This document shows, piece by piece, positions 32,401 to 35,400 of a stretch of 64,000 nucleotides of DNA. The DNA is taken from the NCBI RefSeq assembly GCF_044647545.1, contig NZ_CP172818.1. One strand, given 5' to 3'. Within the stretch, counting starts at the first letter, position 1. Every line of letters begins with the position of its first letter. The position numbers were made by a program. This stretch comes from Escherichia coli (GTDB lineage: Bacteria > Pseudomonadota > Gammaproteobacteria > Enterobacterales > Enterobacteriaceae).

Positions 32401-35400
32401 GTTGTTTAAAAATTGTTAACAATTTTGTAAAATACCGACGGATAGAACGACCCGGTGGATAAGGGCGTCATAAAAAAAACGTCAGACCCGCCGGAGATAA
32501 ATATATAGAGGTCATGATGAGTACTGAAATCAAAACTCAGGTCGTGGTACTTGGGGCAGGCCCCGCAGGTTACTCCGCTGCCTTCCGTTGCGCTGATTTA
32601 GGTCTGGAAACCGTAATCGTAGAACGTTACAACACCCTTGGCGGTGTTTGCCTGAACGTCGGCTGTATCCCTTCTAAAGCACTGCTGCACGTAGCAAAAG
32701 TTATCGAAGAAGCCAAAGCGCTGGCTGAACACGGCATCGTCTTCGGCGAACCGAAAACCGATATCGACAAGATTCGTACCTGGAAAGAGAAAGTGATCAA
32801 TCAGCTGACCGGTGGTCTGGCTGGTATGGCGAAAGGCCGCAAAGTCAAAGTGGTCAACGGTCTGGGTAAATTTACCGGGGCTAACACCCTGGAAGTTGAA
32901 GGTGAGAACGGCAAAACCGTGATCAACTTCGACAACGCGATCATTGCAGCGGGTTCTCGCCCGATCCAACTGCCGTTTATTCCGCATGAAGATCCGCGTA
33001 TCTGGGACTCCACTGACGCGCTGGAACTGAAAGAAGTACCAGAACGCCTGCTGGTAATGGGTGGCGGTATCATCGGTCTGGAGATGGGGACCGTATACCA
33101 CGCGCTGGGTTCACAGATTGACGTGGTTGAAATGTTCGACCAGGTTATCCCGGCAGCTGACAAAGACATCGTTAAAGTCTTTACCAAGCGTATCAGCAAG
33201 AAATTCAACCTGATGCTGGAAACCAAAGTTACCGCCGTTGAAGCGAAAGAAGACGGTATTTATGTGACGATGGAAGGCAAAAAAGCACCAGCTGAACCGC
33301 AGCGTTACGACGCCGTGCTGGTAGCGATTGGTCGTGTGCCGAACGGTAAAAACCTCGACGCAGGCAAAGCTGGCGTGGAAGTTGACGACCGTGGTTTCAT
33401 CCGCGTTGACAAACAGCTGCGTACTAACGTACCGCACATCTTTGCTATCGGCGATATTGTCGGTCAGCCGATGCTGGCACATAAAGGTGTTCACGAAGGT
33501 CACGTTGCCGCTGAAGTTATCGCCGGTAAAAAACATTACTTCGATCCGAAAGTTATCCCGTCCATCGCCTATACCGAACCAGAAGTTGCATGGGTAGGTC
33601 TGACTGAGAAAGAAGCGAAAGAGAAAGGCATCAGCTACGAAACTGCCACCTTCCCGTGGGCTGCTTCTGGTCGTGCTATCGCTTCCGACTGCGCAGACGG
33701 TATGACCAAGCTGATTTTCGACAAAGAATCTCACCGTGTGATCGGTGGTGCGATTGTCGGTACTAACGGCGGCGAGCTGCTGGGTGAAATCGGTCTGGCA
33801 ATCGAAATGGGTTGTGATGCTGAAGACATCGCACTGACCATCCACGCGCACCCGACTCTGCACGAGTCTGTGGGCCTGGCGGCAGAAGTGTTCGAAGGTA
33901 GCATTACCGACCTGCCGAACCCGAAAGCGAAGAAGAAGTAATTTTTCGTTTGCCGGAACATCCGGCAATTAAAAAAGCGGCTAGCCACGCCGCTTTTTTT
34001 ACGTCTGTAATTTACCTTTCCAGTCGCCTTGCTCCGCGCTCAGAGAGACGTTCGCGTACTGCTGACCGTTGCTCGTTATTCAGCCTGACAGTATGGTTAC
34101 TGTCGTTTAGACGTTGTGGGCGGCTCTCCTGAACTTTCTCCCGAAAAACCTGACGTTGTTCAGGTGATGCCGATTGTATACGCTGGCGGGCGTTATCACG
34201 TTGCTGTTGGTTCAGTGGGCGCTGCTGTACTTTTTCCTTAAACACCTGGCGCTGTTCGGGAGTTGCAGACTGAATGCGCTGGCGCGCTGCCTCTCTTCGC
34301 TGCTGGTTCTGCGGGTTAGTCTGCATTTTCTCGCGAACCGCCTGGCGCTGCTCAGGCGAGGCGGACTGAATACGCTCACGCGCTGCCTCTCTTCGCTGCT
34401 GGATCTGCGGGTTAGTCTGCATTTTCTCGCGGACTGCCTGGCGCTGCTCAGGAGAGGCCGACTGATAACGCTGACGAGCGGCGTCCTTTTGTTGCTGGGT
34501 CAGTGGTTGGCGACGGCTGAAGTCGCGGAAGTCGTCATAGCTCCCATAGTTTTCAGCTTCATTAAACCGCTGTGCCGCAGCCTGACGCTGGGTATCTCGC
34601 GTAGTGACTGGTGCTGCGTGTGTTCGTTGCTGAAACTGGCTTGCTGCCGCCTGACGCTGACTGTCGCGCGATAGAGCAGGTAACTGCGTGGCGCTCATGC
34701 CGCCGTTGACATCGGTTTGGTGAAACCGCTTTGCCATATCCTGATCATGATAGGGCACACCATCACGGTAGTTTGGATTGTGCCGCCATGCCATATTCTT
34801 ATCAGTAAGATGCTCACCAGTGATACGGTTGAAATTGTTGACGTCGATATTGATGTTGTCGCCGTTGTGTTGCCAGTCATTACCGTCACGATGACCGCCA
34901 TCGTGGTGGTGATAATCATCATCGTCATGATGATGATGGTCATGATCGTCATCGTCCCAGTCGATGCTGCTGAATAGTGCGTATGTGGTAGCAACGCCCA
35001 TGCTATAGCCGAATCCGCGCACAAAGCTGTCAACAAACGGTTCTCCGGCTGGCGGCGGCAGATAAACTGGCGGATACGCAGTATTGGCCCAGTTCCCGTA
35101 AACCACGGTTGGGTTGTAGTTGGGAATATAGACCACATCAGGATTGGTGGGCTCAATGGAAATGACGGTTGTTGCAGGCTCTGTAATGACAGGGTTGGCA
35201 GTTGAAACGGTATTGGATGGTATGACGGGAGCCGTGACTGTCTGTGTTACCGGTACAGCTTTCTTCGTTGTGGTAATAACTTTCTGTTCGGTTGATGACT
35301 TCAGCGAACCGGTTTGTTGCGCCAGTTGCCGCAATCGCTGTACCGAGTCCATCACGTCCTGCGGCTGCGCCAGAAAAGCATCGCCCAGGTTTTGCACCCA

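What the first reader, a model, noticed from the sequence alone, without database searches (positions are those of the whole stretch)
32405..32433. Perfect 18-bp palindrome AAAATTGTTAACAATTTT inside the putative lpd promoter spacer
About 90 bp upstream of lpd, between a TTTAAA hexamer and a TAAAAT hexamer spaced 17 bp apart, sits an exact 18-bp palindrome (32409..32426). Its placement in the spacer suggests a repressor or architectural-protein site controlling the independent lpd promoter, which supplies E3 to the 2-oxoglutarate dehydrogenase and glycine cleavage complexes as well.
Basis: seen in the sequence. Interest (0 to 1): 0.3.

Follow-up and report, generated by a model that had tools for sequence, protein, structure and literature searches.

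The report
Known ArcA operator in lpdA promoter
The 18-bp palindrome is real and lies in the spacer of the experimentally mapped E. coli lpdA promoter, but it is the core of the already published binding site through which the redox regulator ArcA shuts lpdA off without oxygen, so it is a correct but ordinary finding.

Summary
AAAATTGTTAACAATTTT is a perfect 18-bp palindrome at 32409-32426, between TTTAAA (32405-32410) and TAAAAT (32428-32433), which are 17 bp apart. The window is E. coli and the region is the aceF-lpdA intergenic region. A published Cappable-seq start site (MG1655 127717 = window 32440) puts the hexamers at -35 and -10 and the palindrome at -31 to -14.

The element is already described. 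Park et al. 2013 list window 32402-32434 as a three-direct-repeat ArcA site (-38 to -6, 21-bit box). They report an ArcA ChIP-seq peak, 6.1-fold higher lpdA expression in an arcA deletion, and an earlier ArcA-P binding study (Cunningham 1998). My ArcA matrix, built without lpdA, scores this box highest in the whole 64-kb window.

The symmetry adds little. Window-wide it is not beyond chance. Across 31 genera the right arm and -10 region are near-invariant, while the left arm is conserved only in Enterobacteriaceae.

One small new point: the palindrome is where two oppositely oriented ArcA boxes overlap. One covers -35 and the other covers -10.

PdhR is excluded by published binding assays. A weak Fis-consensus match overlaps the left arm. 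Novelty: already known. Interest: low.

The parts
32313..32342 (+). Intrinsic terminator-like hairpin after aceF (stop codon ends at 32310), with an A-tract before and a T-tract after the stem. It separates the upstream pdh operon transcript from the lpd promoter.
   Evidence: I1: 13-nt arms, 92% complementary; RNA fold -22.6 kcal/mol, z = -5.0, 0 of 200 shuffles fold as well.
32405..32410 (+). -35 hexamer TTTAAA of the lpd promoter (-35 to -30).
   Evidence: positions relative to the start site. T32405 and T32406 are conserved in 30/31 and 31/31 genera.
32402..32419 (+). 18-bp ArcA box TTGTTTAAAAATTGTTAA: DR1 and DR2 with 11-bp spacing, at -38 to -21.
   Evidence: Park et al. 2013 Table S3 (Ri 21 bits). 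My matrix without lpdA gives 21.5 bits, the best hit in the 64-kb window.
32409..32426 (.). The perfect 18-bp palindrome AAAATTGTTAACAATTTT (-31 to -14). It consists of ArcA DR2 (TTGTTAA) on both strands plus A/T-rich flanks.
32425..32434 (+). ArcA DR3 (TTGTAAAATA), 12 bp from DR2, overlapping the -10 hexamer.
   Evidence: Park et al. 2013 Table S4 (DR3 Ri 10.7 bits, listed under '12 bp ctc spacing'); single-repeat score 8.5 bits.
32416..32433 (-). Second ArcA-box-like sequence on the minus strand (ATTTTACAAAATTGTTAA, 11-bp spacing), at -24 to -7. It shares the central TTAA with the plus-strand box. Inferred, not shown to be used.
   Evidence: 19.5 bits, second-best hit in the window; this register is the one conserved outside Enterobacteriaceae, median 15.0 bits.
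32428..32433 (+). -10 hexamer TAAAAT (-12 to -7).
   Evidence: T32428, A32429, A32431 and T32433 are in 31/31 genera (32428, 32429 and 32431 are partly fixed by the anchor pattern, 32433 is not).
32440..32440 (+). lpdA transcription start site (G).
   Evidence: Cappable-seq start site at MG1655 127717 (+), score 55.8 (PMC4782308 supplement). Park Table S6 '-38 to -6' implies 127717. [quoted passage not shown] Coordinate offset from the alignment.
32440..32516 (+). 77-nt lpdA 5' leader, with a modest hairpin (32452-32458 pairing with 32488-32494). K-12 carries an insertion of about 118 bp here.
   Evidence: -17.8 kcal/mol, z = -1.6.
32517..33941 (+). lpdA coding sequence (dihydrolipoyl dehydrogenase, E3).
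   Evidence: RefSeq annotation under the match; NCBIfam TIGR01350, 501.5 bits against a cut-off of 408.8.

Best explanation
The palindrome is the central part of the ArcA-P operator that overlaps the sigma-70 promoter of lpdA (Plpd). When the quinone pool is reduced (low or no oxygen), ArcB phosphorylates ArcA. ArcA-P, an OmpR/PhoB-family regulator that recognises TGTTA-type direct repeats about 11 bp apart, then occupies window 32402-32434 (-38 to -6). This covers the -35 hexamer, the spacer and the -10 hexamer, so RNA polymerase is excluded and lpdA transcription falls together with the TCA-cycle genes. Shown by published data on identical sequence: the start site, the ArcA ChIP-seq peak, and the arcA-dependent expression; an earlier ArcA-P binding study is cited there, but I could not read it. 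Shown here: sequence identity to K-12, the matrix score, and conservation. Inferred: promoter occlusion as the mechanism. Also inferred: the dyad arises because a strong repeat (TTGTTAA) is present on both strands in an A/T-rich context, which gives two overlapping, oppositely oriented ArcA boxes.
For: (1) The window's promoter region is identical to K-12 and O157 from aceF to +18. The 55-bp core is identical in 5163 of 5424 complete E. coli genomes. (2) Park et al. 2013 supplements give: ChIP-seq peaks at 127646/127683; the ArcA box ttgtttaaaaattgttaa with Ri 21 bits, second highest in the part of Table S3 that I could read; three repeats at 127682/127693/127705 spanning 127679-127711, which is window 32402-32434; site at -38 to -6; arcA-deletion/wild-type ratio 6.1; and prior binding credited to Cunningham 1998. 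(3) A matrix built from 114 other ArcA boxes scores 32402-32419 at 21.5 bits, the best of about 128,000 positions in the window. The next unrelated hits are the known acnB and pdhR ArcA boxes. (4) The start site at 127717 comes from Cappable-seq and from the literature. (5) The core is conserved in 67 lpdA upstream regions from 31 genera of Enterobacterales, Vibrionaceae and Aeromonas.
Against: I could not read the primary binding paper (Cunningham 1998), so the exact protected bases are second-hand. Park et al. found that a DR3 spaced 12 bp from DR2 was not protected at putP. The lpdA DR3 has the same spacing, so occupancy of the -10 region in the plus orientation is uncertain. Outside Enterobacteriaceae the plus-strand box is absent (median about -2 to 5 bits) although the spacer core is still conserved. 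Part of that conservation may therefore serve something other than the annotated plus-strand ArcA box.
Confidence: 0.9

Rival explanations
1. The symmetry is functional for ArcA itself. The palindrome is the overlap of two oppositely oriented 18-bp ArcA boxes, plus-strand 32402-32419 over the -35 hexamer and minus-strand 32433-32416 over the -10 hexamer. ArcA-P dimers could bind in either orientation. The minus-strand box would be the older one, with the plus-strand box added in Enterobacteriaceae. This refines the best explanation rather than replacing it.
For: The minus-strand box scores 19.5 bits, second best in the window. It has the canonical 11-bp spacing, whereas the annotated plus-strand DR3 sits at 12 bp, a spacing not protected at putP. 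In the other Enterobacterales the minus-strand register scores a median of 15.0 bits (13.2-19.0) and the plus register about -2. In Enterobacteriaceae the plus register scores 19.7-21.3. Hits of 15 bits or more occur at about 0.046 per 900 positions in background DNA. Park & Kiley 2014 state that ArcA repeats occur in either orientation relative to promoters.
Against: The upstream repeat of the minus-strand box (ATTTTAC) lacks the conserved G and scores only 4.5 bits. Much of the box score comes from the shared DR2 and A/T content. Conservation of TGTAAA(A/C)T is also explained by its being the -10 element. No binding data distinguish the two orientations.
Confidence: 0.25
2. The palindrome is the operator of a separate dimeric, dyad-recognising regulator (for example a GntR/PdhR-like protein) that acts on Plpd in addition to ArcA.
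For: The dyad is perfect over 18 bp, and over 20 bp (CAAAATTGTTAACAATTTTG) in Enterobacter, Phytobacter, Pluralibacter and Mangrovibacter. The half-site AATTGTT differs by one base from the PdhR half-site AATTGGT (the PdhR operator sequence is quoted). The TTAACA core is conserved where the plus-strand ArcA box is absent.
Against: PdhR does not bind the lpd promoter in E. coli (Cunningham 1998, as cited in PMC10572922) or in Plesiomonas by EMSA. The PdhR operator has a 3-bp spacer that is missing here. The spaced pattern has no hit at 4 or fewer mismatches. Conservation is asymmetric: C32420 in 31/31 genera against G32415 in 19/31, and the outer left arm in only 12-16/31. One-arm changes occur in Klebsiella, Enterobacter BIGb0383, Enterobacter R1, Pseudescherichia and an E. 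coli strain, with no change in the other arm. I know of no E. coli regulator with this consensus.
Confidence: 0.05
3. Fis or another nucleoid-associated protein uses the A/T-rich palindrome region as an architectural site that modulates Plpd.
For: The Fis consensus GNNYAWWWWWTRNNC (taken from memory) matches 32404-32418 with one mismatch, centred at -29. Regulon lists used in PMC11253704 place lpdA in the direct regulons of Fis, CRP and ArcA. The core is 72% A+T.
Against: The Fis consensus is highly degenerate, and a one-mismatch hit in A/T-rich DNA is weak evidence. I found no mapped Fis site position. A site centred at -29 would repress rather than shape the promoter. It explains neither the strict conservation of TTAACA nor the dyad.
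Confidence: 0.12
4. The palindrome acts through DNA or RNA structure, as a cruciform in supercoiled DNA or as a hairpin in the read-through pdhR-aceEF-lpd transcript.
For: The inverted repeat is perfect with no spacer, and it lies within the read-through operon transcript.
Against: The single-strand fold is only -4.2 kcal/mol, z = -0.96, and 33 of 200 shuffles fold at least as well. The arms are short and A/T-only apart from one G-C pair each. One-arm substitutions in related species are not compensated.
Confidence: 0.02

Closest known systems
ArcA-P binding site at the E. coli K-12 lpdA promoter (Cunningham et al. 1998, FEMS Microbiol Lett 169:403; Park et al. 2013, PLoS Genet 9:e1003839)
   Same: The sequence is identical: window 32402-32434 = MG1655 127679-127711. 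It has the same three direct repeats, the same position (-38 to -6), the same promoter and the same start site.
   Different: Nothing differs at the operator. The window's strain lacks the repeat insertion of about 118 bp that K-12 carries in the 5' leader downstream of +18. The published annotation treats the site as three plus-strand repeats and does not comment on the dyad or on a minus-strand box.
Three-repeat ArcA operators overlapping promoters, e.g. icdA (Park & Kiley 2014, mBio 5:e01684-14)
   Same: Multiple TGTTA-type repeats overlap the -35 and -10 elements of a sigma-70 promoter of a carbon-oxidation gene, and repression occurs without oxygen.
   Different: In icdA all repeats are spaced 11 bp apart. 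At lpdA, DR2 and DR3 are 12 bp apart, and the central repeat is palindromic so it reads as a repeat on both strands.
PdhR operator of the pdh promoter (AATTGGTaagACCAATT)
   Same: It is a dyad-symmetric A/T-rich site in the same operon, with a similar half-site (AATTGGT against AATTGTT).
   Different: It has a 3-bp central spacer and GG/CC instead of GT/AC. PdhR is reported not to bind the lpd promoter.

Membership tests
Sigma-70 promoter (Plpd) | -35-like and -10-like hexamers 16-18 bp apart | tested here: met
   TTTAAA - 17 - TAAAAT, 9 of 12 matches.
Sigma-70 promoter (Plpd) | Experimentally mapped start site 5-9 nt downstream of the -10 hexamer | tested here: met
   Cappable-seq start site at 127717 = window 32440, 7 nt after T32433; consistent. 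The sequence is identical to K-12 over this stretch.
ArcA-P operator (OmpR/PhoB-type direct-repeat site) | Two or more TGTTA-like direct repeats about 11 bp apart that match the ArcA box matrix | tested here: met
   21.5 bits with a matrix that excludes lpdA, the top hit in the window. Repeats at 32402, 32413 and 32425 score 6.8, 10.4 and 8.5 bits.
ArcA-P operator (OmpR/PhoB-type direct-repeat site) | ArcA occupancy in vivo and ArcA-P binding in vitro | not testable with these tools
   Published for the identical K-12 sequence: ChIP-seq peaks at 127646/127683, with prior binding credited to Cunningham 1998. The primary paper is not held.
ArcA-P operator (OmpR/PhoB-type direct-repeat site) | arcA-dependent expression of the downstream gene | not testable with these tools
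   Published: lpdA is 6.1-fold higher in the arcA deletion than in wild type without oxygen (Park 2013 Tables S5/S6).
Dyad-symmetric operator of a dimeric repressor (e.g. PdhR/GntR type) | Inverted repeat with two equivalent half-sites | tested here: met
   Perfect 9 + 9 bp dyad.
Dyad-symmetric operator of a dimeric repressor (e.g. PdhR/GntR type) | Both half-sites conserved to a similar degree across species | tested here: not met
   The right arm is much better conserved than the left (C32420 31/31 against G32415 19/31; T32424 28/31 against A32411 12/31; T32426 31/31 against A32409 13/31). Several one-arm changes are not matched in the other arm.
Dyad-symmetric operator of a dimeric repressor (e.g. 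PdhR/GntR type) | Match to the PdhR operator, including its 3-bp spacer, and PdhR binding | tested here: not met
   No hit to AATTGGTNNNACCAATT at 4 or fewer mismatches. The literature reports no PdhR binding at Plpd.
Fis site | Match to the degenerate 15-bp Fis consensus, plus mapped occupancy | tested here: inconclusive
   One-mismatch consensus hit at 32404-32418. lpdA is listed in the Fis regulon, but I found no mapped site.

The most novel reading that the evidence does not exclude
The dyad is not incidental. It marks two overlapping, mutually exclusive ArcA boxes of opposite orientation. An ancestral minus-strand box over the -10 region is conserved across Enterobacterales and, more weakly, Vibrionaceae. 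A plus-strand box over the -35 region was added in Enterobacteriaceae. ArcA-P could then load in either direction and repress at a lower ArcA-P level. Less likely, the deeply conserved TTAACA-N4-TGTAAA core is read by a second, unidentified regulator.
Probability: 0.2. Interest if true: 0.3.

Novelty: already known. Interest (0 to 1): 0.1.

Why it matters
lpdA supplies the shared E3 subunit of the pyruvate dehydrogenase, 2-oxoglutarate dehydrogenase and glycine cleavage complexes. Its own promoter lets E3 supply follow the TCA cycle rather than only the pdh operon, and ArcA repression at this site is the known mechanism. For the scan, the value is as a positive control: a reader working from sequence alone correctly located a real promoter and a real repressor site. 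The only new points are minor. The palindrome can be read as two inverted ArcA boxes. The spacer core TTAACA and the -10 region are conserved from Escherichia to Vibrio and Aeromonas, whereas the plus-strand ArcA box annotated in E. coli is specific to Enterobacteriaceae.

Tried and rejected
(1) The primary paper, Cunningham et al. 1998, is not held, so the exact protected bases were taken second-hand from Park 2013. (2) PdhR as the palindrome binder is rejected, on published negative binding and the wrong half-site spacing. (3) FNR is rejected: its ChIP peak is at the pdhR promoter (121,987), not at lpd, and the best FNR-consensus hit has 3 mismatches. (4) Consensus scans for CRP, Fur, IHF, Cra and HexR gave no hits in the intergenic region; Lrp and TyrR matched only at the mismatch limits allowed (4 of 15 and 3 of 12 specified positions). 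The consensus strings were taken from memory. (5) The hairpin or cruciform idea is rejected as energetically unremarkable. (6) Rfam found nothing near gathering scores in the intergenic region or leader. (7) A literature search for lpdA with ChIP-exo gave no papers. (8) My first anchor pattern used the wrong spacing (N7 instead of N6) and found nothing; this was corrected. Two Erwinia rows were spurious matches near the start codon and were re-anchored. (9) Palindrome statistics alone do not establish significance window-wide.

Full report
**Observation.** The window reads ...GTTTGTTGTTTAAAAATTGTTAACAATTTTGTAAAATACCGACGG... around the finding. The repeat finder reports arms 32409-32417 and 32418-32426, 9 nt each, 100% complementary, with nothing between them. 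The dyad stops there because A32408 and G32427 do not pair. The consensus promoter scan finds TTTAAA starting at 32405, a 17-nt spacer, and TAAAAT ending at 32433, with 9 of 12 matches. The coordinates, the sequence and 'about 90 bp upstream of lpd' are all correct; the annotated ATG is at 32517.

**Is it more than chance?** Not on palindrome statistics alone. The 64-kb window holds 19, 5, 3 and 1 perfect palindromes of at least 12, 14, 16 and 18 bp. Dinucleotide-preserving shuffles give 18.8, 4.7, 1.2 and 0.32, and 27% of shuffles contain at least one palindrome of 18 bp or more. Within the 206-bp intergenic region it is rare: 37 of 20,000 shuffles. The case for function rests on conservation and on published experiments.

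**Where this is.** The stretch matches 5424 of 5426 complete E. coli genomes. The features under the match are aceF and lpdA. NCBIfam confirms lpdA, aceF and aceE above their curated cut-offs. aceF ends at 32310 and is followed by a strong hairpin with a T-run (32313-32342; -22.6 kcal/mol, z = -5.0). The promoter region is base-for-base identical to K-12 and O157 from aceF to about +18. K-12 then carries an insertion of about 118 bp in the leader. This fixes the offset: MG1655 coordinate = window coordinate + 95277.

**The promoter is the mapped one.**
- Olvera et al. 2009 place the reported internal promoter 195 nt upstream of the lpd ATG in K-12, that is 127912 - 195 = 127717.
- Park et al. 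2013 place their ArcA site (127679-127711) at -38 to -6, which implies the same start site.
- Independently, the Cappable-seq table of Ettwiller et al. 2016 lists a single-base start site at 127717 (+) with a score of 55.8. It is the only plus-strand start site between 125090 and 128035.
- 127717 is window 32440. TAAAAT is therefore at -12 to -7, TTTAAA at -35 to -30, and the palindrome at -31 to -14.

**What binds there.** Park et al. 2013 report the following for lpdA:
- ArcA ChIP-seq peaks at 127646 and 127683.
- An 18-bp ArcA box, ttgtttaaaaattgttaa, with Ri 21 bits. This is second only to rcsD in the part of Table S3 that I could read.
- Three direct repeats at 127682, 127693 and 127705 (Ri 9.4, 11.7 and 10.7), within TTGTTTAAAAATTGTTAACAATTTTGTAAAATA. 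That string is exactly window 32402-32434.
- 6.1-fold higher lpdA expression in the arcA deletion.
- Earlier ArcA-P binding credited to Cunningham et al. [quoted passage not shown]

I rebuilt a position weight matrix from 114 of their boxes, leaving lpdA out. It scores 32402-32419 at 21.5 bits, the best of all positions on both strands of the window. The next unrelated hits are the known acnB (36067) and pdhR (26591) boxes, which validates the matrix. The element is therefore the known ArcA-P operator of Plpd. Because it covers -35, the spacer and -10, the likely mechanism is promoter occlusion. That step is inferred from the geometry and from what is established for ArcA-repressed promoters.

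**What the symmetry adds.** ArcA belongs to the OmpR/PhoB family and recognises direct repeats as head-to-tail DNA-binding domains. A dyad is not required. The palindrome exists because the strongest repeat, TTGTTAA (10.4 bits), is present on both strands, overlapping at TTAA, with A/T-rich flanks. As a result the minus strand also carries high-scoring boxes:
- 32433-32416, ATTTTACAAAATTGTTAA, 19.5 bits, the second-best hit in the window.
- 32422-32405, 15.8 bits.

The first of these has canonical 11-bp spacing and covers -24 to -7. The annotated plus-strand DR3 is 12 bp from DR2, and Park et al. found that a 12-bp-spaced DR3 was not protected at putP. E. coli Plpd may therefore carry two oppositely oriented, overlapping ArcA boxes, one over -35 and one over -10. 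This is inference. The upstream repeat of the minus-strand box lacks the conserved G (4.5 bits), and no binding data resolve orientation.

**Comparative evidence.** A degenerate pattern for the start of the LpdA coding sequence retrieved 120 gammaproteobacterial loci.
- *Extent.* 67 of them, from 31 genera (Enterobacterales, Vibrionaceae, Aeromonas), share an alignable core: TTTnCA - N4 - (G/A)TTAACA - N4 - TGTAAA(A/C)T.
- *Caveat.* The anchor pattern fixes 32416-32420 and part of 32427-32431. The unanchored columns 32405, 32406, 32421, 32426, 32430 and 32433 are still invariant or nearly so.
- *Asymmetry.* C32420 is in 31/31 genera against G32415 in 19/31. T32424 is in 28/31 against A32411 in 12/31. 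T32426 is in 31/31 against A32409 in 13/31.
- *Distribution of the palindrome.* The full palindrome occurs only in Enterobacteriaceae-type sequences: 18 bp in E. coli, E. albertii and Kluyvera; 20 bp in three Enterobacter genomes, Phytobacter, Pluralibacter and Mangrovibacter.
- *One-arm changes.* It is broken by changes in one arm only in Klebsiella BIGb0407, Enterobacter BIGb0383, Enterobacter R1, two genomes labelled Rahnella, Pseudescherichia, and one E. coli strain (A to G at 32412).
- *Scores by clade.* The plus-strand box scores 19.7-21.3 bits in Enterobacteriaceae-type sequences but about -2 to 5 elsewhere. The minus-strand register scores a median of 15.0 bits in the other Enterobacterales and 10.6 in Vibrionaceae. 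Background DNA gives about 0.046 hits of 15 bits or more per 900 positions.

This pattern argues against a dyad-reading protein. It is compatible with an older minus-strand ArcA element plus the -10 hexamer, onto which Enterobacteriaceae added a strong plus-strand box.

**Rivals.**
- *PdhR.* Its half-site AATTGGT resembles AATTGTT. It is reported not to bind the lpd promoter in E. coli or Plesiomonas. Its operator has a 3-bp spacer that is absent here.
- *FNR.* Its ChIP peak in this operon is at the pdhR promoter.
- *CRP, Fur, IHF, Cra and HexR.* Consensus scans find nothing in the intergenic region; Lrp and TyrR match only at the mismatch limits allowed.
- *Fis.* The degenerate Fis consensus matches 32404-32418 with one mismatch. 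lpdA is listed in the Fis, CRP and ArcA regulons. Fis co-occupancy cannot be excluded, but the evidence is weak.
- *Structure.* A cruciform or hairpin role is not supported (-4.2 kcal/mol, z = -0.96).
- *RNA families.* Rfam finds nothing.

**Verdict.** The element is already known in detail. Interest is low. The only residual novelty is the reading of the palindrome as two inverted ArcA boxes, together with the clade-specific history of the operator.

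Noticed in passing
window 32457/32458 (K-12 locus L001:479-596): K-12, E. albertii and about 63% of complete E. coli genomes (3422 at 99% identity or more) carry an insertion of about 118 bp in the lpdA 5' leader that this window lacks. It is a dispersed repeat (median 5, up to 9 megablast places per genome). From memory, its sequence (CCCCAGGAGCTTACATAAGTAAGTGACTGGGGTGAGG) looks like an ERIC/IRU element. It sits in the loop of the leader hairpin. Its effect on lpdA expression is unknown.
   Followed up: partly
window 32449-32459 and 32485-32495 (leader +10 to +56): The direct repeat GACCCGGTGGA / GACCCGCCGGA forms the two sides of a leader hairpin (CCCGGUG with CGCCGGG; -17.8 kcal/mol, z only -1.6). 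The motif GTCCCGGTGGA at about +12 to +22 is conserved in most Enterobacterales leaders (Yersinia, Serratia, Photorhabdus, Pantoea, Hafnia), which suggests a conserved leader element of unknown function.
   Followed up: partly
window 32313-32342: There is a very stable hairpin after aceF (-22.6 kcal/mol, z = -5.0), flanked by an A-tract and a T-tract, so it looks like a terminator on both strands. The consensus scan reported it only on the minus strand, probably because the A/T pairs extend the stem and use up the T-run.
   Followed up: partly
window 36067-36084 (+), 26591-26608 (+), 26730-26747 (+), 55503-55520 (+): These are the other strong ArcA-matrix hits. The first two are the published acnB and pdhR1 ArcA boxes. 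26730 lies in the pdhR promoter region. 55503-55520 (TTGTTTTTGGTATGTTAC, 13.3 bits) was not examined.
   Followed up: no
L083 (Vibrio ezurae), about 73 nt upstream of lpdA; also L042 and L077: In the V. ezurae / V. breoganii group the homologous core is TTTACA-N4-TGTAAA. In V. ezurae it is a perfect 20-bp palindrome, AGTTTACAAATTTGTAAACT, whose centre lies 7 bp downstream of the E. coli palindrome centre. So a dyad has arisen independently around a different axis at the same promoter.
   Followed up: no
Shewanella loci (e.g. L014, L032, L067), about 100-120 nt upstream of lpdA: Shewanella lacks the TTAACA/TGTAAA core. It has instead a conserved TGTGATCAGTATCAAACA, which resembles a CRP/FNR-type site, followed by GGTAAAAT or GGTTAAAAT. 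Regulation of lpdA there seems to be wired differently.
   Followed up: no
Vibrionaceae loci, about -60 to -45 relative to the inferred start (e.g. L006, L023, L029): A block ACAGGCTAAATnGATTTA is conserved upstream of the -35 region in most Vibrio and Photobacterium species. It has no counterpart in Enterobacterales and is unexplained.
   Followed up: no
L104 and L110 (labelled Rahnella bruchi and R. inusitata): Their lpdA promoter is identical to Enterobacter sp. R1 and of the Enterobacteriaceae type, unlike the other Yersiniaceae sampled (Yersinia, Serratia). This could reflect mislabelled or contaminated assemblies, or horizontal transfer.
   Followed up: no
window 12706-12721 and 15708-15723: These are the two other long perfect palindromes in the window: CCAAAGTTAACTTTGG (16 bp) and TGCAGCTGCAGCTGCA (16 bp; also a tandem repeat of GCA/GCT codons or PstI/PvuII-like sites). 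Three palindromes of 16 bp or more are seen, against 1.2 expected.
   Followed up: no
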